Below, in pieces: positions 26,859 to 39,963 of a DNA stretch of 55,490 nucleotides (positions are counted from its first letter, which is position 1; the number at the start of each line of letters is the position of its first letter). This DNA is from a virus (Duplodnaviria; Caudoviricetes). The stretch lies in IMG/VR virus record IMGVR_UViG_3300037807_000763, positions 1-55,490 of that record; one strand, 5' to 3'. A program made the position numbers and the translations under genes. The notes below the pieces were generated by a model that was not told the DNA's origin, searched no databases, and was given only the letters and a program-made list of their open reading frames with translations.

Positions 26859-28169
26859 TTAACTTACCTTCTCTAATTTAGGAAGTGATAATTTTGGTAT
26901 TTCTGGAAGTGATGCTGTAACAGTTTCTGTAAATACTGGTAATTTTTGATCTAGAATTTCTCTAAAGAGGTCAGTCATTGCATTAAAACTATATTTATTT
27001 TTATTATAAAGTGATTGTTTTCTTGCCTTTAGAACAAATGATTTATAGTCTTTTCTAACACGCATCATTGCTGTTGATGCTGCACCATAATTTACTGCAA
27101 ACCATTGTTGTCCCTTGACATAGATACCCTCTTGGAAGGACTTTTCAGAAACCTCAACTAGACCTCCCGGAAATAGTATTGAGTTATTAGTATTGAGAAA
27201 GTCCACATGCCCACTCCAGTTAGATGCCATTATGGGTTTTTCTGAAAGACTGGCTTCTAAAAGAGGACGACCAAACCCCTCACCATGCGTAAACGTAATA
27301 TGTGACTTTACTTTGGGATGGTTGTAGAGCTCATTCATTTCATCATCGTAAAGATCAGCATGTAAAAGATAAACGTTTGGAAGATCTTTTTCATCTATAT
27401 CCATAGCTTTTCGTATTACTCTTAATCTGGTTAACATGTCTTCTTTATCAATTTTGCATGTAGTTGCACCTGATGTCTTTAGAATAAGAGCTGTATCTTT
27501 TCTGTTTTTGAATGTTTTAAAGAATGTTGCGATTAAATTCCCTACATCTTTACGATCCTCTCCCATACCTCCCTGGAGCCAGTGGCCCACAAACAAAAAA
27601 CACCATTTTTCTTTAATTTGTGACATTGCTTTTTCAAGGTCCTCAGAAATTTCACTATTCTTTGATAGCTTTTTGAAAATTTTTGTGTTAACACCTTCAA
27701 ATAAAACTTCTATAGGCTTTTCAAGTTTCAATACTTGACCTGTTTTTTTATTAGTATATGCTGAAGCTTCTAGTACTTTTTTACTAAAGTTTGAACTTGT
27801 CAAGATTAAGTCCATCCTGTTCATTCCCTCTATCCATGATTGGGGGATAACTGTTGCTTCTAAGCCTGCTGTAATACCGATATTGTATTTACCAACAGGA
27901 ATAAATTCATTGGGTACAACGATATGAATATGAATGTCTGGTTTTTGTTGCATTTCTTTTTCATTCTTTATTAATCTTGAAATGATTTTCATATCTTCAG
28001 GATCATCAACAACAAGTGCGTTTTGAGATGTTTTTCCCCAAGGTACTGGGAATATTTTAATGTCAAATTGATCCATCATAATTAGTGATTGAACGACATC
28101 ACGTGATCGTGCGCCATAACCTGATCTAGTTGCAACAGGAGCTGTTATTAGCATTGTGGGTCTGTACAT
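26859..28169 (-). CDS. Glycosyltransferase, GT4-like
   Basis: SGYG, FLFVGHW, RKD, GEGFGRPLLEA. Confidence 0.88.
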   Translation of the reverse strand: MYRPTMLITAPVATRSGYGARSRDVVQSLIMMDQFDIKIFPVPWGKTSQNALVVDDPEDMKIISRLIKNEKEMQQKPDIHIHIVVPNEFIPVGKYNIGITAGLEATVIPQSWIEGMNRMDLILTSSNFSKKVLEASAYTNKKTGQVLKLEKPIEVLFEGVNTKIFKKLSKNSEISEDLEKAMSQIKEKWCFLFVGHWLQGGMGEDRKDVGNLIATFFKTFKNRKDTALILKTSGATTCKIDKEDMLTRLRVIRKAMDIDEKDLPNVYLLHADLYDDEMNELYNHPKVKSHITFTHGEGFGRPLLEASLSEKPIMASNWSGHVDFLNTNNSILFPGGLVEVSEKSFQEGIYVKGQQWFAVNYGAASTAMMRVRKDYKSFVLKARKQSLYNKNKYSFNAMTDLFREILDQKLPVFTETVTASLPEIPKLSLPKLEKVS

Positions 28170-28171
28170 TT

Positions 28172-29650
28172 TTATATTTTCCTTGTTGTTGTTAGTCCAT
28201 TAAATTCAGGAGTTGCGAAATCCCAAGTTGTAGCATTTGTTATCTCTATTCTGTTTCTTGGTTTCCAGTTTTCTAAAACTTGATAAATATCGTGAATGAA
28301 TCGTTTGTTCATTTCAGATGCTGACATTCCTGTTTCTGGAGACAAGATAAATTTACGTCCTTCTACACCACAAGCTTGGAGCTCTTTACCACGAATTTTC
28401 CATGCTGCCTTTATTTGTTCTGCAACATCCTCAAAATCTGGTCGATCGTCTGAAATATAAGGTGTTGCGGGTGAACCTTGGATGCTTCTTGACGTTGGGA
28501 ATACTGGGAAAACCCAGTTACCATGATCTTTGTAGCGACCATCATGATTAGATCCCCACTCTGTTGTATAGTCATCTACTGTCAAATATGACCCATCTTC
28601 CTTTTTAAATCCACAGTAATCTTGCATTCCACCTGATACATTGACAACTAATGGTGTTCCTGTAATAAGTGATTCTGCTCCCATAAGGCCAAATCCTTCA
28701 TTTGAACTAATGAGAATGCTACAATCAGAAAGGTTATAAAGCCAATTTAATTGTTCTCGTTCTAATTTGTTTGGAGAAAATCCGACAGCATAATTAGGAC
28801 AAAGATTCCTAACCACTTCTGGAAGATCAGTGCCATTATCATCTAAAGGTGAGGTATGCATTAATAAAAGACACTTGTTAGCTTGCTCTTTTGTTAATGA
28901 ATCGCAGAATGTTCTATACGCATAGATAATGTCAGGAACTAATTTTCTTCGAATGTTTCTTGCATTATAGAAAAGTATAAAATCTTTGTCTTGATTACCT
29001 ACTGCTTGTTGCTTGAAATTTTGAAACTCATCCCATTTTTTATCATTCTTGTCCATCAAATAAAAATCGTCCTCATTAATTCCGTGTGGAATATAAGTTA
29101 CTTGCCAATCTTCGTATGATGTTCTTACATTTTTTACGATATTAGATGTTTGTTTTGAAATATTAAAAAGAGCATCAACTGAATCGTAATACTTTTGATT
29201 CCACATTGGATAAGGTAAGTCATCCCAAATATTATAATACATTATGGGTAACTCTTGACGAAGTTCGTGTTCCATTTGAAATAGCCACTGCCAAAATCGT
29301 GGATCTGTGTAGATCAAAATAGCATCAGGCTTGTAATGAGACATTAGAGCTCGCAGCATATCAGGATTTCCATAGCCATTTGTAGGATGGATCTTAAGTG
29401 AGGCACCAGGAACGCCAGTTCTAGTTTGAACATCTTGATCCATATCGATTAATTGACCTTTATCAGGATGATTTATTGCGCCACCAACTTGAACCCAATT
29501 TATTTGATGTAATGTGCCAAGTACAAACTCCCTAGACATATTTCCTACACCTGACATCATTCTTAAATCGTCACTAAGTAGTAGAACAGTTTTTCGTTTG
29601 TCCTGCGGTAGAACTTCGTATCCGTTACGAATATCACCAATTTTAAGCAT
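28172..29650 (-). CDS. Glycosyltransferase, GT4-like
   Basis: SGVG, IPHG, RNIRRK, NEGFGLMGAES. Confidence 0.88.
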   Translation of the reverse strand: MLKIGDIRNGYEVLPQDKRKTVLLLSDDLRMMSGVGNMSREFVLGTLHQINWVQVGGAINHPDKGQLIDMDQDVQTRTGVPGASLKIHPTNGYGNPDMLRALMSHYKPDAILIYTDPRFWQWLFQMEHELRQELPIMYYNIWDDLPYPMWNQKYYDSVDALFNISKQTSNIVKNVRTSYEDWQVTYIPHGINEDDFYLMDKNDKKWDEFQNFKQQAVGNQDKDFILFYNARNIRRKLVPDIIYAYRTFCDSLTKEQANKCLLLMHTSPLDDNGTDLPEVVRNLCPNYAVGFSPNKLEREQLNWLYNLSDCSILISSNEGFGLMGAESLITGTPLVVNVSGGMQDYCGFKKEDGSYLTVDDYTTEWGSNHDGRYKDHGNWVFPVFPTSRSIQGSPATPYISDDRPDFEDVAEQIKAAWKIRGKELQACGVEGRKFILSPETGMSASEMNKRFIHDIYQVLENWKPRNRIEITNATTWDFATPEFNGLTTTRKI

Positions 29651-30393: not shown

Positions 30394-31256
30394 ACTGTTC
30401 CTTTTTTATCACACATGTCAGGTCTGTTGGCATACTCGCACCATTTGCAATTGTTAATAAGACCAAGTTTCTTATACTCACCCTCTGTGTTATATTCACC
30501 TTCCTTAGTAAAACATTCATCTATAAATATGTCTAATTGTTTTTTCATCTTATTCATTGATATGTTACCTGATGGAGGTTCAAAAATTTGTACATATCGT
30601 ACTGGGAAGTCTGAGTTTTCGAAAACTAATCGCTTAACAATAAAAAACTCAATTTCTATGTCATCAAATGGTACATCATACTTTTCTGCAATGAATTTTT
30701 TATAGAATAGTAATTGTCCCCTCTTCATAGGATCACTTTTTTCTTTTTTCCATCCCCTTGTTGATGTTTTTATATCTATGATTTTAATCTTTCCTGTTTC
30801 AGTATTTCGTAAAACAACGTCTAAGTACCCAAGAACATCAAGATTTCTATATACAGAATTAATCTCCATCTCGATCCCCAATAGTTCCCAATTTTTTTTG
30901 AAAAAGTAATTAGATCTCTTTTTCTTAAACCACTCTAGTGCTTTTGAGCCTTGGATGCAAAATTCTGTTAGCTCTGATTGTGTAGAAAAGTGTTTGCCTT
31001 TTGCAGCACTCACAGCTTTTCCATACTCTTTGCGAAGTTCCTCTACAATGGATGCAGACATATCTATCTTATCAGCTGCCTTTATTGAGACAGTATACAT
31101 GGTAGTTATATAGTTCTGCAGTACTGTATGTAGTGCTTTTCCATAAACTGTGTAAATTGAATCAGAAAATTCTCTTAACTTATAGATATAGTTTAGTTTC
31201 CACTTATATGGGCAACTTGTCCAAGTTTGAATTTGAGACCAGCTAATTCTTTCCAT
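30390..31256 (-). CDS. PD-(D/E)xK nuclease, Cas4/AddB-like with 4 Cys (probable Fe-S cluster)
   Basis: SWS...CP, GKALH, E...GYLD...IDIKT, QL..Y, CKWC...C. Confidence 0.88.
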   Translation of the reverse strand: MERISWSQIQTWTSCPYKWKLNYIYKLREFSDSIYTVYGKALHTVLQNYITTMYTVSIKAADKIDMSASIVEELRKEYGKAVSAAKGKHFSTQSELTEFCIQGSKALEWFKKKRSNYFFKKNWELLGIEMEINSVYRNLDVLGYLDVVLRNTETGKIKIIDIKTSTRGWKKEKSDPMKRGQLLFYKKFIAEKYDVPFDDIEIEFFIVKRLVFENSDFPVRYVQIFEPPSGNISMNKMKKQLDIFIDECFTKEGEYNTEGEYKKLGLINNCKWCEYANRPDMCDKKGTV

Positions 31257-31669
31257 TATTTACCCCAACTTCCCCTGCGGACTATCTCTGCGATAATTCC
31301 GTATACTGATAAATCTAAAAAGCTGTCTTCTAATGGTTCATCTTTATTTTCAACATCATTCATTATCATTGTTTTAATTCGTTCTATTTTATCATTCATC
31401 CTGAAAAATAATCCAGTTAGTGATAATTTTACATCTGCTTCAGTTTTTAATTGAGTTCCAACGCTTATGTTGTTTGGGCCGTATGACTGTTGTTTCATTG
31501 CAAATAGCTCATATTGTTCTCGTTGTATGCTTAGGAATTCTGCCATCATCTCAGGATATGCTTGCTTCATTTGACTTACAACATTACTTGCTATAGTTGT
31601 ATAAGCTTCTTTCTTCTTACTGTCTTTTAATACATTTTCCATTTGTTGATCCTCTATATTTCTATACAT
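31256..31669 (-). CDS. Nucleotide-modification-associated domain 1 (DUF1599-like, all-alpha) protein
   Basis: KQQSYG, RMNDKIER, EPLEDSFLDLSVYGII. Confidence 0.75.
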   Translation of the reverse strand: MYRNIEDQQMENVLKDSKKKEAYTTIASNVVSQMKQAYPEMMAEFLSIQREQYELFAMKQQSYGPNNISVGTQLKTEADVKLSLTGLFFRMNDKIERIKTMIMNDVENKDEPLEDSFLDLSVYGIIAEIVRRGSWGK

Positions 31670-32100
31670 TTGATATTATGTTTTTTAAGTAACTCTATAC
31701 CAGAGTCACCACGTTTCTCACCTCTTGCATAAACTTCATCATAGTAAACGCATGTTATACCTGACGCTATAATCTGTTTGGCACAAGAAACACAGGGTGA
31801 GATTGAGATATACATTTCAGCGCCACATGTTGACACACCACTTCTAGCTGCAAATCCGATAGCATTTTGTTCAGCATGAATTTCATTCATAGCTGACCAC
31901 TCGTGGTGTGAAATATCAGGAATTCTGCCAAAAACAAAAACGTCCCCACAGTGATCAGCACCCTTAGGTGTTCCATTCCATCCTGTTGAAACTATTCTCC
32001 CATCTTTAACAATTAATGCTGCAACTGATACCATGACACATGTTGACATTCCTTCAGTAACTTTTAGTACTTTTTTAAAGTATGTTTTATAGTCAGGCAT
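31654..32100 (-). CDS. dCMP deaminase
   Basis: STGWNG, HAEQNA, SPCVSC. Confidence 0.92.
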   Translation of the reverse strand: MPDYKTYFKKVLKVTEGMSTCVMVSVAALIVKDGRIVSTGWNGTPKGADHCGDVFVFGRIPDISHHEWSAMNEIHAEQNAIGFAARSGVSTCGAEMYISISPCVSCAKQIIASGITCVYYDEVYARGEKRGDSGIELLKKHNIKCIEI

Positions 32101-32476
32101 TGGGTTCCTGTTTAAATTTTTGTTCAACTAGCTTTGATTTACTAATAAACTTATTGTAAATTTCATCAACACTGAACCCGTTGATGATTAGCAACCCTAA
32201 CAAATATTTCATTACATCAATTCCCTCTTCTAGAAAATTATCTAAATCGTCTTCTGTTGTTTTAGATTTGTGTGACTTAAAATCTATCTCGTCTAGCATT
32301 TCAGTCACCTCTTTGATAAGCATCAAGATGTAATCTTTACTCCAGAATATTCTCTTTGCTTTATCATTAGGTATTTCACTTATATCATACCCTTCATTTT
32401 CATCAAAGAACTCTTTTGTAAATTTTTCTTGAATTGAATACATTTTTTCAAATTTGTCCATATTATCCCTATACAA
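32093..32476 (-). CDS. All-alpha NTP pyrophosphatase (dimeric dUTPase/MazG-like)
   Basis: EVTEMLDE...FKSHK...EEGIDVMKY. Confidence 0.75.
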   Translation of the reverse strand: MYRDNMDKFEKMYSIQEKFTKEFFDENEGYDISEIPNDKAKRIFWSKDYILMLIKEVTEMLDEIDFKSHKSKTTEDDLDNFLEEGIDVMKYLLGLLIINGFSVDEIYNKFISKSKLVEQKFKQEPNA

Positions 32477-33377
32477 TGTGTGCTGAATGTAAAATTATTT
32501 TGAGTGTTGTTTCTTTTTGTCTTCCTAGTGATAGAAACGATTGTACTGTCTTTGAAAGGTAAGCTAAAAATTGAAGGTCATAAAGAAAAATATCAGAAAC
32601 ATTTGATGACCTACATGTTGCGTAAAAATTTAATCTATCATCTCTATGCACAGTGTGGAACAATGAAATGCATGAATTATCGGTGTAAATGAATCTTCTT
32701 GTTTTATTACTTAACTGTTTTTTATTGTACTCATTACGTCCGTTTAGCTCGTCATCAATGTTCTCCAATACAGAATGTAAGATTGTATTGTAGTAAACTT
32801 CTTCATCTGGGTGATATAAAATTTCAGGATCAATGTCAGTATTCCTAACTTTGTTCAAATCTATTTCCATTGTAAGTGGATATGCTTCTAAGTTGTCTGA
32901 TGCTCTTGCGTTAGTGGTAACCTCTTTTGTGACTTGACTAAAACTAGATGATTCTCTTGTTGTGAGCCATATTTGACAGTCTGCAACTAGTGCGCTTTCT
33001 GATAGCTCTCTTTCAATTATCTTGATAGTTGAGTATTTTGAATAGTGTTTTGACCATTTTTTGAAGATCTTGTATAGATTAAGAATTGATTCTTTATCTT
33101 GGAATTCATCACCTCTTTTCTTAAGTCTTTCTAATAAGATTTTCTTTGAAGGTAATAATACTATTGTTCGTTTATTTAAGTTATTTAATGAGTCACGTAA
33201 TCTCTTGTGCCATTCATCTGTACTTCTCCCATAAAGTTCTGCGTAGCAAAGCATACTTAACTCAGCTCTGTCTTGTATGTTCCACTTAAAACTAGACGCT
33301 CTATGTAAACCGTTATAAAGAGTAGTTTTACCAGCTAGATCTGGTCCTTCAATTGTAACTGTATGTAGATTTATCAT
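32469..33377 (-). CDS. Fusion of a dNMP-kinase domain and a truncated thymidylate-synthase-fold domain
   Basis: N-terminal IEGPDLAGKTT, DR, RGDE. C-terminal TRR, SC, RSSN...D and SAH align with TS motifs SRR, PC, RSxD...N and DxHxY. Confidence 0.72.
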   Translation of the reverse strand: MINLHTVTIEGPDLAGKTTLYNGLHRASSFKWNIQDRAELSMLCYAELYGRSTDEWHKRLRDSLNNLNKRTIVLLPSKKILLERLKKRGDEFQDKESILNLYKIFKKWSKHYSKYSTIKIIERELSESALVADCQIWLTTRESSSFSQVTKEVTTNARASDNLEAYPLTMEIDLNKVRNTDIDPEILYHPDEEVYYNTILHSVLENIDDELNGRNEYNKKQLSNKTRRFIYTDNSCISLFHTVHRDDRLNFYATCRSSNVSDIFLYDLQFLAYLSKTVQSFLSLGRQKETTLKIILHSAHIV

Positions 33378-36300
33378 ATTTGGAAATTAAGTTGCTTAAC
33401 TTTTGGTGCACTTGAAGACATTCCCCAGTCAGGGTCATGATGAATTTCTGCAATACAGAGGGTGTATAAATCTGGAAGCTTTTCGGGTAAGAAATCACCC
33501 CAAAGCCTTAGCCAACCTGTATTATTATTGTTATCTGCTACCTTAAATCTCCAAAATACTTTTCCATTCTTGGTTTTCTTTTTGTGTTCTTCTATTATGC
33601 AAAACCAAGCTGTTTGTTTCGACCTTTCAGGTATGTTAAACATTGAAGGTACGTTGTGTAATGTGATTTGCTTAATAACTTCATCTGGAAACATCAAAGT
33701 AGAGTTTGCTGATTGCATTAGTGTCATGTAATTATCTATTTTTTCAATTCTAGTCCAGTCTTTGATGTAATTTGTCTCTTCTAGTAGCTTATCCATAAGT
33801 GGCTCAACTACGATGCTCTTTTTTATTGCCCTCTCATATTGTGTCTTTGTTAGTCCGTAGAGGCCTTTCTTTAACTGGTTGTATTGTTTATCATTTGTGA
33901 GAGCTTGCATTAATTGATTATGATTGTTTATTTTACCTGAAACAAAATCATCTAATGATTTGAATGCTTCTACCTGACTCAGTGATCTTATTGCTGTCTT
34001 ATTTAACTTAGACCATCTCCACTTATTGTCATCATCATACAAAAACTCCTTTAATGTAGCAAAGGGTCGTTGTTTAATTAGCTCATCCATTGCAATAGAT
34101 CCAACACCCTTGACTGTACTTAGGGGTGGGACAAAAGCTTTAATGTCCTCTGAGAACGTCCACTCATTTCCTGAGTAATTAATGTCTAAGTCAGCGAAGT
34201 TATATCCGTAAGATTTAATTTCTGCAATTGTCTTGGATAATCCAGCAGGGCTATTATTTTCTGATTGAAGTACAGTTGCTAACCATTCTTTTTCATAATG
34301 TGTATGTAACCATGCTGAGTAATAAGAGTCGATAGCATAAGCAATAGCATGTGATTTGTTAAATCCGTAAACAGAGAATGCTTCAATTGTCTCCCACAGT
34401 GTAGTTGAAATAGACTCATCTAGATTGTGTAATTCTTTAGCACCCGCAACAAACTTATTTTTAGCAATCTCTCTTTCAGATGCTTTTCCATCTAGAGTAT
34501 CAAGTGACTTTTTAACTAATGTCTTCCTGAGTTTATCAGACTCTCCTGGTGAGAATCCTGCTAGTTTTTGTGCTAATAGCATAAATTGCTCTTGGAAGAT
34601 TACAAAGTTAAATGTTGGTCCTAAAATATCTTCAATAACTGGGTGATCGTATTCAATCATTGCTGCATGTTTCTTGGCATCAACAAATTTCTTATGAACA
34701 TTTGCTTTTAGTGGTCCTGGACGATAGATAGCTGTTAATGCTGCTAATTCTTCTATGTCTGTTGGTTTTGCATCAAGACAAAATTTCCTTGCACCTTCTG
34801 CAGTAAACTGAAAAACTGATGTAAAGTGGGCGTCTTCGTAAACATGTTTCCAGACTTTTAGATCTTCCTGTTTATTGAATCTACAGTTTAAGTGTTCATC
34901 AAAGAATGTACTTATCTCAGAGAACGCAGGGTTTTCATTTCCGTTTTTAATTAAAATTCTTCTAATACAATTTTCAACGTCCTTAAGTAGTGTCAGTCCC
35001 AAGAAGTCAAATTTTAAGAAGCCATTGTCTTCCAGGTGTCTAAAGTTCATTCCTTCTGCCCAGGGAGTTTGTAATTCCCCCCGAACACTTATTAATGGCA
35101 TACAAGTTTGAATATCATTTTCAGGTGCAACAATTACACCTCCAGCATGTCTACCGATACTTCTATTCTCCATAAATAGTGTCTCAACATGTTTACCCAC
35201 ATCTTCGTATTTAGTCATGAAGTCTTTATATTTTTTAGAGAATTTCATACAATCAGCATGCTTAAGTACAAAAACAGATTTCTCTTCATCTTCATTTCTT
35301 GCATGCGGCATTACTTCTTCTTGCAGACCATTAGTTAGATTGTTAATTTCATTAAAAGGAACACCGTAGAATTTAGAAATATCTTTTATTAGTGACTTAA
35401 GCTTTAGTGTATTGAAATTCGAAACAGGAATTACAGCGTCTTCACCAAATAGTTCGCGTGATGCTTCAATTAATGCCTCTCTATCACCTGCATCTGTATC
35501 AATATCAGGCCATGATATCCTATGTCTACCAAGGAATCTTGACCAAAGTAGACCGTAAGGAATTGGATCAATCTGGGTTATTCCAAGGAGATAATTTACT
35601 AAACTTCCTGATCCTGAACCCCTGCCAGGACCAAAGATCGTTTTAAGTTTTGCTTTATCAAATATTTTTGTCATTGCTAAAAAGTATGATTCATGTCCAA
35701 GAAATTTTATATCTTCAAGTTCTTCTTTGACGCGATCAATATATTCCTGCTTCCCAGAAAGCCCCTCGCGTATTAATCCTTCTTTTACTAAATCTACAAG
35801 CAAGCTAAATGCTGATTTCTCTTTTGTACCAAATGTGGGGAGCTTAGCAGTTTTATCAATCCACGTATCTTCGCATAGATTCCACGCAATATCATGCGTT
35901 CTATTTATTGAATCACGGACATCCATCTCATAACCTTTGTAAAAATCATACATTTCATAATTCTTACTAAACTCGCCCCACATTTGTTGCGCATTTTTTG
36001 GGTATAATAAACATTTCAATTCTTCTTCTTTGGGTAATACCATCTTTGTTGGATCATTACTGAACCATCCAAGTTTTTTGTAAAGTTCACGTGCTTCCCA
36101 TAAATCAGGTGATGGGTAATGAGAATCAGCAGTTGAAATTAATTTTGTTCCTGTCTTTCTAGAGAGATCAAGTAACATCTTGTTGGTCATTTGTTGTGCA
36201 CCCAAATCATTAAATTGTAACTCTAAAAAGAAATTTTCTTCACCAACAGTATTTGTAAAGTGGTCCACCATGTTTTCTAAGCGTCCCATGATTGTATTAT

Positions 36301-37012
36301 ATTTAACTGGATCAGTTAATAGATCTGGGTTCATGTCATTGAAACTTAAATCTTTGTACTCATTGTAAATAATACCAGAAGCTATACCACCAACACAAGC
36401 TGTTGATACTATAAGACCCTCACCGTGCTCTTTGAGCATTTCAAAATCAATACGAGGAAATCTATAAAAGCCATGCTTGTATGATTTCTTAATGAGAGTA
36501 AATAAGTTGCCCAATCCCTTCCTATTTTTAGCTAATACAACAAGGTGATAGTATTTCTTCCACTGAGGTTTGCTTGCACTGGACTTTTTTGTTTCTTCTT
36601 CATCCTCTATTATATGCCCACCCTGATTAATTTCATCTTCTGCATTAATCATTACAGGAGAATTAGCAAGCTTCTTAGCTTTTTTATTATCTCGTTCATC
36701 TTTAACTTTTTGACGATGCTCATCATATTGCATTTTCCATGTGTGCAATGAAGGAACAAAATAAAATTCACATCCATAAATTTGTCGATAGTCATGGCCC
36801 TTCTTCTTAAGTGACATTGCATGCTGGTTTGCATGTGCTAATCCTGATCCATTTCCATGATCAGTCAGCGCCCAGGAGTTGCCACCTTGTTCTTCACTTG
36901 TGATAAAGTTTATGTGGTCTTTAGGGTATCCCAAGCCATCAAAAGTGCTGAATGAAGTGTGAGCATGTAGCCCTGTAAATTGTGTTGGGGGTACTATATT
37001 CTTCAAAGACAT
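33374..37012 (-). CDS. dnaE: DNA polymerase III alpha subunit (family C)
   Basis: PHP domain (HAHTSFS..DG, TDHG, DSHY), GRGSGSGS, PDIDTD, KFDFLGL, YGFNKSH. Confidence 0.95.
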   Translation of the reverse strand: MSLKNIVPPTQFTGLHAHTSFSTFDGLGYPKDHINFITSEEQGGNSWALTDHGNGSGLAHANQHAMSLKKKGHDYRQIYGCEFYFVPSLHTWKMQYDEHRQKVKDERDNKKAKKLANSPVMINAEDEINQGGHIIEDEEETKKSSASKPQWKKYYHLVVLAKNRKGLGNLFTLIKKSYKHGFYRFPRIDFEMLKEHGEGLIVSTACVGGIASGIIYNEYKDLSFNDMNPDLLTDPVKYNTIMGRLENMVDHFTNTVGEENFFLELQFNDLGAQQMTNKMLLDLSRKTGTKLISTADSHYPSPDLWEARELYKKLGWFSNDPTKMVLPKEEELKCLLYPKNAQQMWGEFSKNYEMYDFYKGYEMDVRDSINRTHDIAWNLCEDTWIDKTAKLPTFGTKEKSAFSLLVDLVKEGLIREGLSGKQEYIDRVKEELEDIKFLGHESYFLAMTKIFDKAKLKTIFGPGRGSGSGSLVNYLLGITQIDPIPYGLLWSRFLGRHRISWPDIDTDAGDREALIEASRELFGEDAVIPVSNFNTLKLKSLIKDISKFYGVPFNEINNLTNGLQEEVMPHARNEDEEKSVFVLKHADCMKFSKKYKDFMTKYEDVGKHVETLFMENRSIGRHAGGVIVAPENDIQTCMPLISVRGELQTPWAEGMNFRHLEDNGFLKFDFLGLTLLKDVENCIRRILIKNGNENPAFSEISTFFDEHLNCRFNKQEDLKVWKHVYEDAHFTSVFQFTAEGARKFCLDAKPTDIEELAALTAIYRPGPLKANVHKKFVDAKKHAAMIEYDHPVIEDILGPTFNFVIFQEQFMLLAQKLAGFSPGESDKLRKTLVKKSLDTLDGKASEREIAKNKFVAGAKELHNLDESISTTLWETIEAFSVYGFNKSHAIAYAIDSYYSAWLHTHYEKEWLATVLQSENNSPAGLSKTIAEIKSYGYNFADLDINYSGNEWTFSEDIKAFVPPLSTVKGVGSIAMDELIKQRPFATLKEFLYDDDNKWRWSKLNKTAIRSLSQVEAFKSLDDFVSGKINNHNQLMQALTNDKQYNQLKKGLYGLTKTQYERAIKKSIVVEPLMDKLLEETNYIKDWTRIEKIDNYMTLMQSANSTLMFPDEVIKQITLHNVPSMFNIPERSKQTAWFCIIEEHKKKTKNGKVFWRFKVADNNNNTGWLRLWGDFLPEKLPDLYTLCIAEIHHDPDWGMSSSAPKVKQLNFQI

Positions 37013-37040
37013 ATTGTATGTTTCTTTTTAATTGTTGTTA

Positions 37041-37074
37041 TAGAATCTAATAAAACTTTCCATTAGATGAAAGG
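37041..37074 (-). promoter_or_regulatory. Promoter motif TTTCAT-N17-TAGATTCTA (copy 5), upstream of dnaE
   Basis: CCTTTCAT CTAATGGAAAGTTTTAT TAGATTCTA. Confidence 0.72.
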
Positions 37075-37079
37075 TTTTT

Positions 37080-38075
37080 TTAGTAATATTTTGTCAAATC
37101 TATATTTTGATTTTCTGCTTCTTGCAAGTAAATTAGTGGATTGTAGTTTGAATCTCTTTCGCTTGTAATACTTTCGTAAGATCTTCTTAGTCCATCTAGC
37201 AAGCTAATGCTTGGTTGCCAATCTGTATAACTTGTGAATTTTTTCCTGGATAATCTGTGATTTCCAAGGTAATCTGTTTTTGGATGCCACTTTATGAGAG
37301 GGTTTAGATCTTTTCCTGCAATATCTGACATACTTGTAATGATTTCTTGTGTTATGATAGGAGTTTCAGCTGCTATATTAAAATCATCTTGGAAAAGATC
37401 TTTAAAAATCGCTAATGCAACTGCATCACAAAAATCTTCTACATGTAAATAATCTTTGATTTTGTTTGGATCTAAAAACATGTTTATTTTTTCATTCTCT
37501 TTACTAGCATAAAATGTCTTTGCAATTAATGAATTCATATCACCTACACCACCGTATGCAAAAAGTGGGCGTATGATCATCCACTTATTAGCAAATGATT
37601 TGACCATTTCTTCTGCTGTTACTTTTAAATGACCGTAGTAAGTATGAGGTCCCCTTACTGAATCTTCCTTTATGTGTAGTTCTTGATATAACTTTGCATC
37701 ATATATCACTGTAGTTCCTAAATAGACTACGGGTATGTTACATTTATTTGCTGCTCTAATAATGTTATACGTTCCGGTCACATTTGTGAGTGTTGCTTCA
37801 GATGGCTTAAGTGCAACAACGTCTGTCCCAACTACAGCAGCATTATGAATTACAATATCAATTTTTTGGGAATCAAAAATTTTCTCCCACAAATTTTCAT
37901 TATTCAAATGCACACAAATTTCATTTGTGTCTGTATATTTAGTACCTATTTCTTCAAATAACTCCTTTTTTGTATCGTCAAGATTTGGGTTGAATGATGA
38001 AATGTTGTACTTTGACAAAGATCTTGGTAAGTTTGTTCCTATGAATCCCTTTTCACCTGTAATTAAAGCCCTCAT
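37080..38075 (-). CDS. NAD-dependent nucleotide-sugar epimerase/dehydratase
   Basis: ITGEKGFIG, HNAA, YGHLK, KDYLHVED. Confidence 0.85.
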   Translation of the reverse strand: MRALITGEKGFIGTNLPRSLSKYNISSFNPNLDDTKKELFEEIGTKYTDTNEICVHLNNENLWEKIFDSQKIDIVIHNAAVVGTDVVALKPSEATLTNVTGTYNIIRAANKCNIPVVYLGTTVIYDAKLYQELHIKEDSVRGPHTYYGHLKVTAEEMVKSFANKWMIIRPLFAYGGVGDMNSLIAKTFYASKENEKINMFLDPNKIKDYLHVEDFCDAVALAIFKDLFQDDFNIAAETPIITQEIITSMSDIAGKDLNPLIKWHPKTDYLGNHRLSRKKFTSYTDWQPSISLLDGLRRSYESITSERDSNYNPLIYLQEAENQNIDLTKYY

Positions 38076-39032
38076 CTATGCTCCCAAGAAATCATACTTT
38101 TTGTAAGCAGCCTTCTTTAGTACAAGAAGTTCTTCATCTATTTTGCTGATAATTTCCAAGAATGTATTTCTTCCTGTATCTGTCCCATTGAGCTCATCAC
38201 GTCTTGCCTGATAAAGAAAATCATCTTCATTGTAGTCAAAAGAATCTGAATCATTATCAGGAAAATATAAATTTGTTCCTGTGCCAGTTCTAGCTGTTGA
38301 AATATAGTATCTTGCTGGTGAGTGGATGTCAACTGCATCAATAATCATTGGATATTTTTTGACTAGCTCTAACCACATATAGTATGCAACAACATTATCT
38401 TCTGTTGGTTGTATTTGTTTATCAAGTCTTGTCTTAATGAATGACATTACATCTCTAATATTTCCTCTTGACCAGTAAAATGTACTAAGACACTTAGGAA
38501 GGATATGTCTAGCATCCATTATAGAAATTTCTTTTGTGTCAACCATGTCAGCATAAAGTTGCTTTGATTCATTCACAATCTTCTTATATCTTTCAAACAT
38601 TTCTGGTGAATTAATAATTGCATGCGGAACGACAGCATTATCATCTCTTTGAGATCTATCACCTGTACATTGAGCTGAAAAACTGAAGGCTCGATGTCTA
38701 ATTAAGTGAGTTACAAATTGTGTGTCTATTCCATCAATAGTAAATGTACAATTAATAGTTTCAAATGCTGTTGGTAGTAGTTTGCCTTGGAATAACATCC
38801 AGATCATTTTATCTTTTTCATAATCACTCAAGTCTTGTGAATGAAATGGTTTACTTGCCCATGTTGCTGTACAAAAATCTGGAATGTAACTTCTTAATTC
38901 TTCTATTGAAGGAGAGTTTACTAAATTAACTTTGATTGCGTCTAAATGATCAGTGAATGATGTGCTAATCGAATCATTAATCCCTAGTGTTGTTGGTAAT
39001 TTAACTGGTTCTAGATTATTATTGAGTGGCAT
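38076..39032 (-). CDS. Divergent ThyX-fold flavoprotein
   Basis: THLIRHRAFSFSAQCTGDR and DARHILP. The canonical SxRY is missing. Confidence 0.75.
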   Translation of the reverse strand: MPLNNNLEPVKLPTTLGINDSISTSFTDHLDAIKVNLVNSPSIEELRSYIPDFCTATWASKPFHSQDLSDYEKDKMIWMLFQGKLLPTAFETINCTFTIDGIDTQFVTHLIRHRAFSFSAQCTGDRSQRDDNAVVPHAIINSPEMFERYKKIVNESKQLYADMVDTKEISIMDARHILPKCLSTFYWSRGNIRDVMSFIKTRLDKQIQPTEDNVVAYYMWLELVKKYPMIIDAVDIHSPARYYISTARTGTGTNLYFPDNDSDSFDYNEDDFLYQARRDELNGTDTGRNTFLEIISKIDEELLVLKKAAYKKYDFLGA

Positions 39033-39038
39033 ACTACT

Positions 39039-39560
39039 TTATCTCCGATATTTTTTAAGTTTCTTTTCTAATTGTTTTACTCTTTTTCCTGCATCTTTTA
39101 CAACATCTTTCATATAGCCTTTGTTTCCTAATAGTACTTCAGCTTTAGCATACTGAACACAACTGAGATTATCAGCAAATTTTACGATCAATGCTTCAAC
39201 TGAATCTTGGGCTTCAAATGATTCAAATAGTGAGACCCACTGTGGGTATTTCTCCTTCATTACAATTAGTTCTGCCTCTGTAATTGCGTTTTTAATGTTT
39301 GGAAAGTTTTTCTTTACATCATGTGTAACATCAGACAAGTGTAATTCTGGAACATCGTGAATTAATGCCATTGGTAATGCAGTCTCTAAGCTAAAGTTAT
39401 ATTCATCATACATTTTTAAAACAAGGATTGCAACAAAAAATGAATGTTCTGCAACACTTTCTGATATGATTTTGAATTTGTTATTGTAACGTGTGAGGGC
39501 TTTAAGTGTATAGATACTATCAGTAAAGTCACTCAACGTGACCGATGTACTCTTTTTCAT
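39039..39560 (-). CDS. HD-domain phosphohydrolase (YfbR-like 5'-deoxynucleotidase family)
   Basis: R...ESVAEHS, HDVPE, SD, KFAD. Confidence 0.9.
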   Translation of the reverse strand: MKKSTSVTLSDFTDSIYTLKALTRYNNKFKIISESVAEHSFFVAILVLKMYDEYNFSLETALPMALIHDVPELHLSDVTHDVKKNFPNIKNAITEAELIVMKEKYPQWVSLFESFEAQDSVEALIVKFADNLSCVQYAKAEVLLGNKGYMKDVVKDAGKRVKQLEKKLKKYRR

Positions 39561-39963
39561 AGTCTTTATTTTCCATTATTTGTTTTACATGTTCTTTTAA
39601 TTCTTCAACACTAGTTGCCACAGCACGACCACTACGACTGAGCATGATGTTAAAGTTTCCTGTCAGGCCTTCACAATAATAAATGATGGGTGTATTAACT
39701 GCAAATGAATAGCCAGCTTCAAATATTGTTCCCAAATCTTTATCTCTAGTATTACATACAACAAATTTTGCGTGTTCTATTGCTTTGACATTCCCACGAA
39801 AAACCTCTTCTTGTTCTTGACTTGTTGCATTTCTCTTAACAACAATTTCATCTTTGGGAGAAAAGTAATTAACATCTAATTCATCAAGAACATCTTTAAT
39901 ATTTTCTAGATCTTGGGCTTGATTTGGATTGAACCATCCACTTGCGATATAACAATCGTACAT
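39529..39963 (-). CDS. Nucleoside 2-deoxyribosyltransferase family (nucleotide N-glycosidase)
   Basis: YIASGWF, FSP, DLGTIFEAGY, NIML. Confidence 0.88.
   Translation of the reverse strand: MYDCYIASGWFNPNQAQDLENIKDVLDELDVNYFSPKDEIVVKRNATSQEQEEVFRGNVKAIEHAKFVVCNTRDKDLGTIFEAGYSFAVNTPIIYYCEGLTGNFNIMLSRSGRAVATSVEELKEHVKQIMENKDYEKEYIGHVE

What the first reader, a model, noticed from the sequence alone, without database searches (positions are those of the whole stretch)
31256..39963. Candidate undescribed modified-pyrimidine DNA pathway built around a DnaE polymerase
Seen: nine contiguous, mostly overlapping genes between nrdJ and the Cas4-like nuclease. In order they are an NDT-family glycosidase, HD deoxynucleotidase, divergent ThyX, NDP-sugar epimerase, DnaE, kinase/TS-fold fusion, MazG/dUTPase-like protein, dCMP deaminase and Nmad1-like protein. 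Established: phages that replace a base (T4 hmC, SPO1 hmU, dZ phages) combine a base-modifying enzyme, usually a kinase, enzymes that purge the canonical nucleotide, and an adapted polymerase. Inference: all four roles are filled here, by two non-canonical C5-pyrimidine enzymes, a kinase, up to four pool-editing enzymes and a family C polymerase. A sugar epimerase sits in the middle, far from the glycosylation island. A near-canonical ThyX elsewhere (453-1085) could cover dTMP supply. This suggests a modified, possibly sugar-bearing, pyrimidine made at the nucleotide level. I do not recognise this gene combination as a characterised pathway.
Basis: partly seen in the sequence, partly recalled or inferred. 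Interest (0 to 1): 0.85.

Follow-up and report, generated by a model that had tools for sequence, protein, structure and literature searches.

The report
Kinase fused to mini thymidylate-synthase domain
An uncultured marine phage keeps, next to its DNA polymerase, a nucleotide kinase fused to a stripped-down relative of the enzymes that make modified cytosine in phage T4 and RB69, together with an altered second ThyX, which suggests but does not prove that its DNA carries a modified cytosine.

Summary
The key gene is 32469-33377. It is a TMK-like dNMP kinase fused to a ~140-residue minimal thymidylate-synthase (TS) fold (AF2 pLDDT 96). Its best structural matches are the phage HY126 dCMP hydroxylase AfhB, TS and T4 dCMP hydroxymethylase. 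The domain keeps the catalytic Cys, the RR and RS phosphate binders and the final His. It has Asp at E. coli N177 (cytosine-type) and Asn at D169, the proposed 5-hydroxy-dCMP synthase signature (PMC13326640). It lacks the folate-binding parts.

The fusion lies within 10 kb of DnaE in 80 of 80 related IMG/VR loci. The divergent ThyX occurs in 10 of 10 large relatives. The cultured Geobacillus phage GR1 carries the same module unfused, with the ThyX-like gene directly followed by the mini-TS gene.

Best reading (about 0.4): a T4/RB69-like pre-replicative cytosine C5-modification pathway in a new architecture. Main rival (about 0.33): ordinary pyrimidine-pool management for an AT-rich genome. The epimerase is not core, no DNA glycosyltransferase travels with the module, and no chemistry has been shown.

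The parts
39529..39963 (-). NDT-family protein (nucleoside 2-deoxyribosyltransferase / dNMP N-glycosidase fold), 144 aa
   Evidence: PF05014 2.3e-15, phrog_7995 2.8e-23. It aligns to N-deoxyribosyltransferase 6evs (1.8e-5), with a Glu at the aligned position of the 'WELG' segment, which I recall as the catalytic Glu. It lies within 10 kb of the fusion in 31 of 80 loci and near ThyXdiv in 26 of 31 loci. It is also present in GR1.
39039..39560 (-). HD-domain YfbR-like 5'-deoxynucleotidase / dNTP hydrolase, 173 aa
   Evidence: PF12917 5.6e-17; phrog_7076 'dATP triphosphohydrolase' 5.7e-21; NCBIfam 5'-deoxynucleotidase 34.6 bits, under the 122-bit cut-off. NDT-HD-ThyXdiv is a fixed trio in close relatives, in GR1 and in 9 of 31 ThyXdiv loci.
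38076..39032 (-). Divergent long ThyX paralogue ('ThyXdiv'), 318 aa, with a conserved ~85-residue C-terminal extension
   Evidence: PF02511 5.4e-20; NCBIfam thyX 45.2 bits, under the 87.9-bit cut-off. AF2 pLDDT 88.5; Foldseek hits ThyX 3hzg at 4e-11 and PolB 4p5b at 4e-10. Through the alignment to T. maritima ThyX, R78, R80, R147, R174 and E58 are kept, while H53->L86, E144->M172, R90->D125 and H178->Q206 are invariant changes in 52 family members. More than 1083 clusters exist. It is present in 10 of 10 large relatives. A 48.5% identical copy is in Geobacillus phage GR1.
37080..38075 (-). Extended SDR (NDP-sugar epimerase/dehydratase/reductase family), 331 aa; accessory here
   Evidence: PF01370 1.9e-29. 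No NCBIfam equivalog reaches its cut-off (best is dTDP-glucose 4,6-dehydratase, 85 vs 365 bits). It is present at this position in 6 of 11 informative close loci and replaced by MazG in 5. An SDR lies within 10 kb of the fusion in 56 of 80 loci, often as two copies. It is absent from the GR1 module.
33374..37012 (-). DnaE-type (family C) DNA polymerase alpha subunit, 1212 aa
   Evidence: PHP, DNA_pol3_alpha, finger and HHH_6 domains; phrog_405 8.4e-219. The best cultured-phage match is only 28% identical. It lies within 10 kb of the kinase-miniTS fusion in 80 of 80 loci.
32928..33377 (-). N-terminal domain of the fusion: TMK-like dNMP kinase (residues 1 to ~150)
   Evidence: VIA Z 14.1 to SPbeta YorR 3kb2 and Z ~12 to thymidylate kinases. 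The A1 profile hits 2axp at 7.5e-8. Invariant residues are E10, D13, G16, K17 (P-loop), D36, R37, R84, R88, G89 and D90. My reading of these as the TMK P-loop, DR motif and lid is recalled knowledge. Pfam and NCBIfam TMK hits are under their cut-offs.
32469..32900 (-). C-terminal domain of the fusion: minimal thymidylate-synthase/dCMP-hydroxymethylase-like fold (residues 160-302 plus stop)
   Evidence: Foldseek top hits are 9iqu (HY126 dCMP hydroxylase AfhB, 4.7e-6), 9iqc, TS, MilA and T4 dCH. The domain-only profile A3 hits T4 dCH 1b49 at 3.8e-4 and AfhB at 0.012. In the Atlas, 27 of 30 feature hits are PF00303 clusters. C236 = T4 C148; R256 S257 = R168 S169; N259 = T4 D171 (E. coli D169); D267 = T4 D179 (E. 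coli N177); H300 lies in 'SAHI' against AfhB 'SAHV'. There is no PF00303 hit. The protein ends 2 residues after H300.
32093..32476 (-). MazG / dimeric-dUTPase-like all-alpha NTP pyrophosphohydrolase, 127 aa
   Evidence: PF08761 2.9e-6; phrog_12184 and phrog_173 at about 1e-7; weak PDB match to MazG-like 2q73. In 5 close relatives it sits between ThyXdiv and DnaE. In distant relatives it sits next to a MazG-NT5C fusion upstream of ThyXdiv.
31654..32127 (-). dCMP deaminase (zinc), 157 aa
   Evidence: PF00383 3.3e-20; phrog_174 5.2e-47; ComEB-type 88 bits. It lies within 10 kb of the fusion in 64 of 80 loci.
31256..31669 (-). Nmad1 / DUF1599 protein, 137 aa, function unknown
   Evidence: PF07659 1.6e-3 (under the cut-off); phrog_1485 5.3e-13; Atlas 30 of 30 hits are DUF1599 clusters, score 0.96. 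It is conserved in close relatives, lies near ThyXdiv in 3 of 31 loci, and was not found near the fusion in the 80 distant loci.
26859..29650 (-). Two GT4-type glycosyltransferases just downstream (candidate DNA glycosyltransferases; link unproven)
   Evidence: 28172-29650: PF20706 'GT4 in conflict systems' 2.8e-6, 27 bits vs a 26-bit cut-off. 26859-28169: GT1-type hits under the cut-off. Both are conserved (63-75% identity) in the 4-5 close relatives whose loci reach this far. They were not found near the module in distant relatives.
453..1085 (-). Second ThyX, of a variant-motif subfamily; probable dTMP synthase
   Evidence: PF02511 6.2e-39. It is well aligned to T. maritima ThyX with H53, E144, S88, R90, R147, R174 and H178 kept, but K-S-T in place of R78-H79-R80. 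The 120 best homologues printed share this kind of motif.

Best explanation
The region is a pre-replicative deoxypyrimidine module built on the T4/RB69 plan but with new parts.

Proposed steps (all inferred; none is shown):
1. The C-terminal mini-TS domain of the fusion protein binds dCMP. Asp267 reads the cytosine and Cys236 adds to C6. The domain then installs a group at C5. This is most likely a hydroxyl, as in the flavin-dependent 5-hydroxy-dCMP synthases, whose Asn signature this copy has. In relatives with Asp at that position it may be a hydroxymethyl.
2. The fused TMK-like kinase phosphorylates the product at once.
3. Host NDP kinase and the phage DnaE put it into DNA.
4. MazG, the HD nucleotidase and the NDT-fold protein edit the pool by removing the canonical nucleotide or deaminated by-products.
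5. dCMP deaminase and the second ThyX (plus thymidine kinase in relatives) supply dTTP for an AT-rich genome.
6. The divergent ThyX, which has lost the folate-site residues but kept the nucleotide-binding arginines, works with the mini-TS domain. I think its most likely role is as the flavin-handling partner.
7. The neighbouring GT4 enzymes may then glycosylate the base on DNA.

Shown: the folds, the conserved active-site residues, and the conserved gene linkage across distant phages.

Inferred: substrate, product, cofactor, the role of the divergent ThyX, and any DNA modification.
For: Structure of the fusion:
- It is one confident two-domain protein (pLDDT 96, pTM 0.91).
- The kinase half matches YorR and TMKs (Z 12-14).
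- The C-terminal half matches the TS superfamily, with AfhB dCMP hydroxylase on top. The domain-only profile gives T4 dCH 3.8e-4 and AfhB 0.012. The Atlas gives 27 of 30 hits.

Active site across 85 fusions, not de-duplicated:
- Cys is kept in 83.
- Asp at the E. coli N177 position in 85.
- RR, RS and His are kept in 83.
- The position three before the Cys is never a bulky hydrophobic residue (Q, D, E, S, N, G, H).
- The window copy has Asn at the E. coli D169 position. The paper states that N177D gives dCMP preference and that D169N marked every 5hodCMP synthase tested, and that the cognate dNMP kinase is needed for incorporation (PMC13326640, sections 24 and 28 read).
- That position toggles between D, N and E at least 9 times on a tree of 73 distinct fusions, while the rest of the site is fixed.

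Linkage:
- DnaE lies within 10 kb in 80 of 80 loci and dCMP deaminase in 64 of 80.
- ThyXdiv is present in 10 of 10 large relatives, alongside a standard ThyX in 8 of 10.
- In cultured Geobacillus phage GR1 the same set occurs unfused: NDT, HD, GT, kinase, flavin reductase-like nitroreductase, ThyXdiv, mini-TS, DnaE, MazG. The mini-TS start overlaps the ThyXdiv stop.
- Five metagenomic loci show ThyXdiv directly followed by a short TS-like ORF and then DnaE.
- No full-length TS (PF00303) is found in 4 large relatives or in GR1.
- A GT4 of the 'conflict systems' family lies 1.6 kb downstream in the window.
Against: - No chemistry is shown. The mini-TS lacks roughly the first 60 and last 55 residues of TS, by my recalled mapping on E. 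coli TS, including the folate-contacting helix and the C-terminus. How it would hold folate or flavin is therefore unknown.
- The D169N rule was derived on full-length TS homologues. In this family the position varies (N 41, D 31, E 13 of 85) and differs between close relatives (window and L013 have N; L008, L009, L012 and L014 have D).
- Two relatives (L089, L094, from 84% and 100% complete genomes) have lost the Cys, RS and His but keep the domain and ThyXdiv. This fits a non-catalytic role at least there.
- Relatives carry thymidine kinase, a MazG-NT5C fusion, a DHH phosphoesterase and a standard ThyX. That looks like plain pyrimidine salvage.
- tmk next to a polymerase gene is also a common bacterial arrangement (recalled).
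- No glycosyltransferase family was found in 10 unknown ORFs beside the module in distant relatives. The window's GT4 genes adjoin a large glycan island that includes a CMP-sugar synthetase and a sialyltransferase-like GT, so they may serve another target.
- ThyXdiv keeps R174, which I recall as the uracil-O4 contact. That argues that its own ligand is a uracil nucleotide.
Confidence: 0.4

Rival explanations
1. This is ordinary deoxynucleotide-pool management without any base replacement. The module tunes dTTP and dCTP supply for an AT-rich (about 33% GC) genome in a nutrient-poor host. NDT, HD, NT5C, TK and TMK salvage and recycle. dCMP deaminase plus ThyX convert C to T. MazG/dUTPase keeps dUTP out. 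The mini-TS domain is then a dCMP/dUMP-binding regulatory or channelling domain of the thymidylate kinase, or a cofactor-free Cys-dependent dCMP-to-dUMP converter. ThyXdiv is a specialised dTMP synthase.
For: - Every member has a housekeeping counterpart.
- Relatives add thymidine kinase, MazG-NT5C, a DHH phosphoesterase and Fpg.
- A standard ThyX is present in 8 of 10 large relatives.
- GR1 has only the ThyXdiv-type ThyX and no PF00303 TS. There ThyXdiv may simply be the thymidylate synthase.
- The mini-TS lacks the cofactor-binding parts, and two relatives lost its Cys.
- GC is about 0.31-0.40 across the window.
Against: - A regulatory domain would not need an invariant Cys, RR, RS, Asp and His set in 83 of 85 copies.
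- Asp at the N177 position points to cytosine, not to the kinase's presumed thymidylate substrate.
- A zinc dCMP deaminase is already present.
- Two ThyX paralogues are kept side by side across 8 of 10 large genomes. ThyXdiv has invariant replacements at H53, E144 and R90, which I recall as the folate-site and substrate-loop residues.
- The D/N/E toggling at one active-site position is unusual for a housekeeping enzyme.
Confidence: 0.33
2. The modified base is a thymine or uracil derivative made by the divergent ThyX. ThyXdiv would turn dUMP into 5-hydroxymethyl- or 5-hydroxy-dUMP by stopping the ThyX reaction before the final reduction, or by using the flavin with O2. dCMP deaminase and MazG would feed dUMP, and HD/NT5C would remove dTMP. 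The mini-TS-kinase would only phosphorylate or bind the product.
For: - ThyXdiv keeps the nucleotide-binding arginines, including R174, but has lost H53 and E144.
- It is the most conserved gene of the module (74-82% identity among close relatives, against 39-61% for the fusion).
- It is present in every relative examined and in GR1.
- Pyrimidine-specific NT5C nucleotidase domains are fused to MazG right upstream of it in relatives.
- 5-hydroxymethyl-dUMP has been trapped from the ThyX reaction (recalled, not read here).
Against: - The phages keep a standard ThyX and a thymidine kinase. These make dTTP and would compete with such a base.
- No 5-hmdU DNA kinase or aGPT-Pplase was seen in the window.
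- The reading gives no role to the conserved cytosine-type active site of the mini-TS.
Confidence: 0.12
3. A sugar-bearing pyrimidine would be assembled at the nucleotide level, with the SDR epimerase as an integral step.
For: - An extended SDR sits between ThyXdiv and DnaE in the window.
- SDRs of this family lie within 10 kb of the fusion in 56 of 80 loci, often one on each side of DnaE-fusion, with a 4,6-dehydratase-like second copy.
Against: - The SDR is replaced by MazG in 5 of 11 informative close relatives.
- It is absent from GR1 and from the NDT-HD-ThyXdiv-TS-DnaE loci.
- Known phage pathways attach sugars on DNA, not on the mononucleotide (PMC13326640, abstract and discussion read).
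- No nucleotidyl-sugar transferase is in the nine-gene block.
Confidence: 0.05
4. This would be a 2-aminoadenine (Z) genome pathway. The HD protein would act as DatZ-like dATPase and MazG as MazZ.
For: - The HD protein's best PHROG is named 'dATP triphosphohydrolase'.
- A PurA/PurZ-like gene (PF00709) is present in 3 of 15 related records, including both complete genomes.
Against: - There is no PF00709 match in the other 12 records or in GR1, and none among the window's scanned ORFs. ORFs 50473-55446 were not scanned.
- The module is built around pyrimidine enzymes.
- The PurA-like genes are far from the module.
Confidence: 0.03

Closest known systems
5-hydroxy-dCMP synthases of phages RB69 (gp48), DLP3 (gp80), RL38JI (gp216) and HY126 (AfhB; PDB 9iqu, 9iqc), with their cognate dNMP kinases and DNA glycosyltransferases (PMC13326640)
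   Same: - TS-superfamily fold with the catalytic Cys.
- Asp at the E. coli N177 position, Asn at D169, and an acidic or polar residue at L143.
- A 'SRR' motif and a 'SAH[IV]' motif.
- A TMK-like kinase partner; in RL38JI the kinase gene lies two genes away.
- Glycosyltransferases nearby.
- AfhB is the top structural match.
   Different: - Here the TS part is only about 140 residues. It lacks the N-terminal third and everything after the His, and is not recognised by PF00303.
- It is fused to the kinase.
- The Asn is not fixed in the family.
- A divergent ThyX always accompanies it.
- The polymerase is DnaE rather than a T4-type family B enzyme.
- No arabinose or UDP-sugar activation genes of the RB69 type were seen.
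T4 hydroxymethylcytosine pathway (gp42 dCMP hydroxymethylase, gp1 dNMP kinase, gp56 dCTPase/dUTPase, Cd dCMP deaminase, Td, alpha/beta-glucosyltransferases)
   Same: - The same logical set is present: TS-like dCMP enzyme, kinase, NTP pyrophosphatase, dCMP deaminase, thymidylate synthase, nearby GTs.
- The genes are embedded among T4-like gp32, UvsX/RecA, helicase and RNR genes.
- T4 dCH is the best sequence-profile match of the mini-TS.
   Different: - The folate-binding half is missing.
- MazG-type rather than gp56-type pyrophosphatase.
- ThyX rather than ThyA-type Td.
- Extra NDT, HD, Nmad1 and ThyXdiv genes.
- The roles of the T4 proteins are recalled knowledge, apart from what the 2026 paper restates.
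Flavin-dependent thymidylate synthase ThyX and its neofunctionalised relative PolB (UMP/dUMP C5-methylase of polyoxin biosynthesis, PDB 4p5a/4p5b)
   Same: ThyXdiv has the ThyX fold (Foldseek 4e-11 to 4e-10) and the R-x-R, R147 and R174 nucleotide-binding residues.
   Different: - Invariant L, M, D and Q at T. maritima H53, E144, R90 and H178.
- A conserved acidic ~85-residue C-terminal extension.
- Scores under the NCBIfam thyX equivalog cut-off.
- Coexists with a standard ThyX.
Geobacillus phage GR1 (OK896991.1), genes UDY80701-UDY80713
   Same: It carries NDT, HD, kinase, ThyXdiv (48.5% identity), mini-TS, DnaE/PHP and MazG-type dUTPase in one block.
   Different: - Kinase and mini-TS are separate genes.
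- The mini-TS directly follows ThyXdiv.
- A glycosyltransferase and a nitroreductase-type flavin reductase sit inside the block.
- There is no SDR, no second ThyX, and no Nmad1 in the stretch seen.
- It is a 79-kb siphovirus of a thermophile.
- The papers found mention its endolysin and genome, not its DNA chemistry (search listing and abstracts only).

Membership tests
Thymidylate synthase / dCMP hydroxymethylase superfamily (for residues 160-302 of the fusion) | TS alpha/beta fold | tested here: met
   Foldseek gives probability 1.00 to 9iqu, 9iqc, TS, MilA and T4 dCH (E 4.7e-6 to 5e-4), but only the core is covered: 113-144 aligned columns to human TS and T4 dCH. The Atlas structure search gives TM 0.72 by query to a PF00303 cluster.
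Thymidylate synthase / dCMP hydroxymethylase superfamily (for residues 160-302 of the fusion) | Catalytic cysteine (E. coli C146, T4 C148) | tested here: met
   C236 aligns with T4 C148. It is kept in 83 of 85 fusions.
Thymidylate synthase / dCMP hydroxymethylase superfamily (for residues 160-302 of the fusion) | Phosphate-binding Arg-Arg pair and Arg-Ser (E. coli R126, R127, R166, S167) | tested here: met
   R256 S257 align with T4 R168 S169. R227 R228 in 'TRRF' align with AfhB 'SRRV' only in a low-scoring segment. All four are invariant in 72 of 72 sequences.
Thymidylate synthase / dCMP hydroxymethylase superfamily (for residues 160-302 of the fusion) | Folate-binding elements (helix with W80/W83, C-terminal segment after H207/Y209) | tested here: not met
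   The protein ends 2 residues after H300 (= H207). Only one strand and two helices precede the RR strand. The 58 of 65 domain ends printed stop 1 to about 15 residues after the His, or after the Ser/Leu/Gly-His variants of that motif. The residue mapping on E. coli TS is recalled.
Thymidylate synthase / dCMP hydroxymethylase superfamily (for residues 160-302 of the fusion) | Pfam PF00303 gathering threshold | tested here: not met
   No PF00303 hit at E <= 0.01 for the fusion. No PF00303 match in 4 relatives' genomes that carry the fusion.
5-hydroxy-dCMP synthase (Lee et al. 2026; AfhB) | Asn at E. coli D169 (proposed diagnostic residue) | tested here: met
   N259 in the window copy, through the T4 dCH alignment. 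In the family the counts are N 41, D 31, E 13 of 85. AfhB shows 'RSQN' at the same place.
5-hydroxy-dCMP synthase (Lee et al. 2026; AfhB) | Asp at E. coli N177 (dCMP preference) and an acidic residue at L143 | tested here: met
   D267 is present in 85 of 85 fusions. Position 233 (Cys minus 3) is D in the window. In 72 sequences it is Q 37, D 12, E 11, S 8, N 4.
5-hydroxy-dCMP synthase (Lee et al. 2026; AfhB) | Flavin binding and O2-dependent hydroxylation of dCMP | not testable with these tools
   This needs purified protein or the in vivo LC-MS assay.
Flavin-dependent thymidylate synthase ThyX (for 38076-39032) | ThyX fold and Pfam threshold | tested here: met
   PF02511 scores 72.4 bits against a 24.8-bit cut-off. 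Foldseek gives 4e-11 to Mtb ThyX.
Flavin-dependent thymidylate synthase ThyX (for 38076-39032) | ThyX motif RHRxxS...SxR | tested here: not met
   The first half, R-H-R-A-F-S, is present (R-Y-R in most relatives). The second half reads C-T-G-D, with Asp at the R90 position, invariant in 52 of 52.
Flavin-dependent thymidylate synthase ThyX (for 38076-39032) | Folate-site residues H53 and E144 (T. maritima numbering; role recalled) | tested here: not met
   L86 and M172 are both invariant in A2. The window's other ThyX keeps both residues.
Flavin-dependent thymidylate synthase ThyX (for 38076-39032) | NCBIfam equivalog TIGR02170 cut-off | tested here: not met
   45.2 bits against a cut-off of 87.9.
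Thymidylate kinase / dNMP kinase (for residues 1-150 of the fusion) | P-loop kinase fold with TMK-type motifs | tested here: met
   Z 11-14 to YorR, dTMP kinases and deoxynucleoside kinases. The P-loop, D-R and lid residues are invariant. Pfam (24.5 vs 27) and NCBIfam (31.1 vs 83.25) scores are under their cut-offs, so substrate specificity is open.
Z-genome cluster (PurZ, MazZ, DatZ, DpoZ) | PurZ (adenylosuccinate-synthetase homologue) in the genome | tested here: inconclusive
   None among the window's scanned ORFs. PF00709 is present in 3 of 15 related records. The window is only about 29% of its genome.
Nmad1 / DUF1599 (for 31256-31669) | Match to PF07659 | tested here: inconclusive
   19.2 bits against a cut-off of 25. 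Atlas: 30 of 30 nearest clusters are DUF1599, score 0.96, with a structural TM of 0.65 to a DUF1599 cluster.

The most novel reading that the evidence does not exclude
The divergent ThyX and the minimal TS domain are two halves of one new kind of pyrimidine-C5 enzyme. The ThyX-derived flavoprotein would supply or hold the reactive flavin species. The mini-TS has shed its own cofactor pocket and would activate dCMP through its cysteine. The fused kinase would trap the product. Repeated D/N/E switching at one active-site position would change the product between lineages. On this reading, a large clade of abundant uncultured marine phages of about 140-280 kb, and the cultured Geobacillus phage GR1, would carry cytosine derivatives made by an enzyme architecture not yet described.
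Probability: 0.15. Interest if true: 0.88.

Novelty: new variant of a known kind. Interest (0 to 1): 0.68.

Why it matters
If the reading holds, the TS-superfamily route to modified cytosine extends in two ways. It would reach a widespread group of uncultured marine large phages that use DnaE. It would also reach a much smaller catalytic unit, about 140 residues fused to its kinase.

The reading also gives a first functional context for a large family of long ThyX paralogues (more than 1000 clusters at 90% identity) that annotation pipelines currently name as thymidylate synthase.

It bears on how metagenomic DNA from such phages behaves in library preparation, restriction digestion and nanopore base-calling.

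The hypothesis is directly testable. A cultured phage (GR1) carries the same module, and the fusion is a single 302-residue protein suited to the published in vivo LC-MS assay.

If the rival holds, the result is still useful. The fusion would then be a TS-derived nucleotide-binding domain on a thymidylate kinase, and the 'D169N' rule would need restricting to full-length enzymes.

Tried and rejected
- Complex prediction on ThyXdiv (A2) with the mini-TS domain (A3) gave no verdict (score 0.00). It says nothing either way.
- The look-up of sequencing runs was unreachable in four tries. I could therefore make no look at reads, expression or nanopore error patterns, and read laying was not used.
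- I could not obtain the paper that I recall as the one naming the Nmad domains (Iyer et al. 2013) by DOI or PMC id. What I say about Nmad1 beyond the Pfam name is recalled. A search for Nmad1/DUF1599 found only incidental mentions (listing only).
- I found no paper linking a ThyX paralogue to DNA hypermodification (listings; passages of PMC8989533, which mentions ThyX only as a mechanistic analogy). Supplements were closed. The supplementary alignments of PMC13326640 might show whether any short TS homologue was among the nine tested.
- tblastn of the fusion against 50,697 cultured-phage records found nothing. GR1's split copies were found only with profiles.
- hhalign of the ThyXdiv family against the window's other ThyX gave only a weak partial match (probability 18%).
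- I considered that the two ThyX copies complement each other in a heterotetramer, because the window's short ThyX lacks R-H-R while ThyXdiv lacks H53, E144 and R90. I dropped this idea. The relatives' short ThyX have a normal HRHR motif. The K/R-H/S variant is a large natural subfamily that includes bacterial proteins. No hidden RHR lies in another frame.
- I first noted the epimerase as merely variable and later found it widely present in distant relatives. I keep it as accessory.
- The VIA second look at the fusion model was filled by kinase matches and did not test the C-terminal domain.

Full report
**What the window is**

The window is a 55,490-bp IMG/VR virus record, estimated 29% complete. 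It is about 33% GC, and essentially all genes lie on the minus strand. The finding sits in a T4-like replication block:
- upstream: gp32-like protein, RecA/UvsX, 5'-3' exonuclease, DnaB-like helicase and NrdJ;
- downstream: a PD-(D/E)XK nuclease and two GT4 glycosyltransferases.

**Observation**

The nine ORFs are present as described. Two matches are under the curated cut-offs: the thymidylate-kinase match and the DUF1599 match. Both are rescued by other evidence:
- The kinase gives Z 12-14 to YorR and dTMP kinases.
- For DUF1599, 30 of 30 nearest Atlas clusters are DUF1599.

The DnaE has no close cultured relative. Its best match is 28% identical.

**The key gene: the fusion at 32469-33377**

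With an alignment of 72 homologues, AlphaFold2 gives one compact two-domain model (pLDDT 96, pTM 0.91).

Residues 1 to about 150 form a TMK-like kinase.

Residues 160-302 have a thymidylate-synthase-type core:
- Foldseek's best matches are PDB 9iqu and 9iqc (phage HY126 dCMP hydroxylase AfhB with dCMP and flavin). Next come TS proteins, MilA and T4 dCMP hydroxymethylase.
- A profile of the domain alone (41 sequences) finds T4 dCMP hydroxymethylase at E 3.8e-4 and AfhB at 0.012.
- 27 of 30 Atlas feature neighbours are PF00303 clusters.

The HMMER alignments put:
- C236 on T4 C148;
- R256-S257 on R168-S169;
- N259 on T4 D171;
- D267 on T4 D179;
- 'SAHI' on AfhB 'SAHV'.

In E. coli numbering (the conversion from T4 numbering is recalled), these are C146, R166, S167, D169, N177 and H207.

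The domain is only a core. One strand and two helices precede the RR strand, and the protein stops two residues after the His. Pfam's TS model does not see it. By my recalled map of E. coli TS, the folate-contacting helix and the C-terminal segment are missing.

**What the literature says**

I read sections 24, 28 and 29 and searched passages of PMC13326640. That paper shows the following:
- TS homologues of RB69, DLP3, RL38JI and others make 5-hydroxy-dCMP with a flavin and O2.
- N177D gives dCMP preference.
- L143 is acidic in the hydroxymethylating and hydroxylating enzymes.
- D169N marked all tested hydroxylases.
- A cognate dNMP kinase is needed for incorporation.
- Sugars are then added on DNA.

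The window's fusion has all three residue signatures and brings its own kinase.

**Family-wide behaviour of the active site**

In 85 fusions from the window and related loci (not de-duplicated; L012 and L017 are the same contig):
- Cys, the RS pair and His are kept in 83.
- The N177-position Asp is kept in 85.
- The D169 position is N in 41, D in 31 and E in 13.

On a maximum-likelihood tree of 73 distinct fusions, that one position needs at least 9 changes (shuffled mean 30). Within the window's own small clade, both N (window, L013) and D (L008, L009, L012, L014) occur.

Two fusions (L089, L094) have lost the Cys, RS and His.

Against 1.84 billion representative proteins, the domain profile finds 442 clusters at E <= 1e-3. 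Among the 150 best listed, most are about 300-aa fusions, and some are stand-alone proteins of about 165-200 aa.

**Linkage in related loci**

In 14 close loci the order is NrdJ-NDT-HD-ThyXdiv-[SDR or MazG]-DnaE-fusion-(MazG)-dCMP deaminase-Nmad1-nuclease-GT. Of the 11 loci that cover the slot between ThyXdiv and DnaE, 6 have the SDR and 5 have MazG.

In 80 more distant loci found with the fusion profile (29-47% identity, contigs up to 284 kb), the following lie within 10 kb:

| Gene | Loci of 80 |
|---|---|
| DnaE | 80 |
| dCMP deaminase | 64 |
| an SDR | 56 |
| NDT | 31 |
| ThyXdiv | 21 |
| MazG | 15 |

Many loci are cut by contig ends and several are near-duplicates, so these are rough lower bounds. 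The same blocks also hold thymidine kinase, a DHH phosphoesterase, a MazG-NT5C fusion, Fpg and a superoxide dismutase.

**The divergent ThyX**

It has the ThyX fold and more than 1083 relatives of similar length. By alignment to T. maritima ThyX:
- It keeps R78, R80, E58, R147 and R174.
- It has invariant L, M, D and Q at H53, E144, R90 and H178.
- It has a conserved acidic C-terminal extension.

All 10 large relatives examined (137-284 kb, two of them complete) carry it, and 8 of the 10 also carry a standard ThyX. It is present in 5 of 5 further records. None of the four large genomes tested, nor GR1, has a full-length PF00303 TS.

The window's other ThyX (453-1085) keeps H53, E144, S88, R90, R147, R174 and H178 but reads K-S-T for R-H-R. 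It belongs to a big natural subfamily with that motif.

**A cultured counterpart**

Geobacillus phage GR1 has a 48.5% identical ThyXdiv as its only ThyX match. Profiles show that its block reads NDT, thioredoxin, HD, glycosyltransferase, kinase half (E 1.7e-13), RNase H, nitroreductase-type flavin reductase, ThyXdiv, mini-TS (E 3.3e-11, with C, RSSN and D), a small ORF, DnaE, MazG. The mini-TS start overlaps the ThyXdiv stop.

In 31 further ThyXdiv loci, the neighbours are:

| Gene | Loci of 31 |
|---|---|
| NDT | 26 |
| MazG | 23 |
| DnaE | 21 |
| HD | 9 |

Five of these loci repeat the GR1 order, with a 197-320-aa TS-like ORF or fusion directly after ThyXdiv and before DnaE.

So ThyXdiv, the TS-like unit, NDT, HD, MazG and DnaE travel together across very different phages.

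**Interpretation**

The conserved catalytic set of the mini-TS argues for a T4/RB69-like pre-replicative cytosine modification. So do its cytosine-type Asp, its fusion to a competent-looking kinase, the accompanying pyrophosphatase and deaminase, and the recurrent switching of the one residue known to set product chemistry in full-length homologues. The tight ThyXdiv-miniTS linkage, and the fact that each has lost its own folate-site elements, suggest that they act together on a flavin-based reaction. That step is conjecture.

Several facts argue against:
- The cofactor pocket is missing.
- Two lineages have lost the Cys.
- The block has a strong salvage flavour (thymidine kinase, NT5C, standard ThyX).
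- No conserved DNA glycosyltransferase was found.
- The window's GT4 genes adjoin a large glycan island with a CMP-sugar synthetase and a sialyltransferase-like GT.
- There is no chemical evidence at all.

I put the modified-cytosine reading at about 0.4 and plain pool management at about 0.33.

**Other readings**

A ThyX-made uracil derivative is possible but clashes with the dTTP-making genes. A Z-genome reading rests only on a PHROG name and on PurA-like genes in 3 of 15 relatives.

**Novelty**

TS-homologue routes to hmC and 5hoC are known. Three things look new:
- the minimal TS unit fused to its kinase;
- its fixed partnership with a neofunctionalised ThyX;
- its spread in DnaE-using marine large phages.

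My searches found no description of these, but supplements and non-open papers were not visible.

Noticed in passing
window 453-1085 (-): The 'near-canonical' ThyX reads K-S-T where ThyX has the R-H-R motif, with an Arg five residues later. The 120 best homologues printed, including bacterial proteins named FAD-dependent thymidylate synthase, share a [KR]-[HS]-x-x-G-x-x-R-N-E-x-S-R-R-Y motif. This is a variant-motif ThyX subfamily and not a broken gene. GC is also higher here (0.39-0.40) than in the rest of the window.
   Followed up: partly
window about 14815-29650 (-): A large glycan-synthesis island: GT2, SAM methyltransferase, WbqC, PIG-L deacetylase, SDR epimerase, 2-hydroxyacid dehydrogenase, CMP-sugar cytidylyltransferase, SDR, cupin, GT1-like, GT29 sialyltransferase-like, GT2 and two GT4. 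This looks like a nonulosonic or keto-sugar pathway. Its target (virion, host surface or DNA) is unknown.
   Followed up: partly
related records G001 (212797-213723), G008 (135346-136356), G009 (11545-12558): Adenylosuccinate-synthetase-like (PurA/PurZ) genes occur in 3 of 15 related virus records. G008 and G009 are the two records whose kinase-miniTS fusion has lost the catalytic Cys. The G001 copy is a 346-aa ORF matched in two pieces.
   Followed up: no
loci L022, L028, L039, L042, L050, L054, L059, L070, L072, L078, L088, L089, L094: DnaE is matched in two to four separate ORF pieces with gaps of about 0.8-1 kb. This suggests inteins or homing-endonuclease or intron insertions in the polymerase gene of many relatives.
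   Followed up: no
loci L003, L009, L010, L013, L016, between NrdJ and NDT: There is an insertion of about 3-3.5 kb between NrdJ and the NDT gene in some close relatives. It is absent from the window. Its content was not examined.
   Followed up: no
window 13395-14312 (-): A Dam-type N6-adenine DNA methyltransferase (PF02086, 1.6e-20), so m6A in GATC-like sites is likely whatever else the DNA carries.
   Followed up: no
L025 2538-3470; also L030, L077 and most ThyXdiv loci: Directly upstream of ThyXdiv, many relatives have a 310-320-aa fusion of a dUTPase_2/MazG domain with an NT5C pyrimidine 5'-deoxynucleotidase domain, preceded by a second small MazG. The fusion would take a dNTP down to the nucleoside in one protein.
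   Followed up: partly
L097 (Geobacillus phage GR1) 8286-8885: A nitroreductase/dihydropteridine-reductase-type flavoenzyme lies immediately upstream of the ThyXdiv-miniTS pair in GR1. It is a possible flavin or pterin recycling partner.
   Followed up: no
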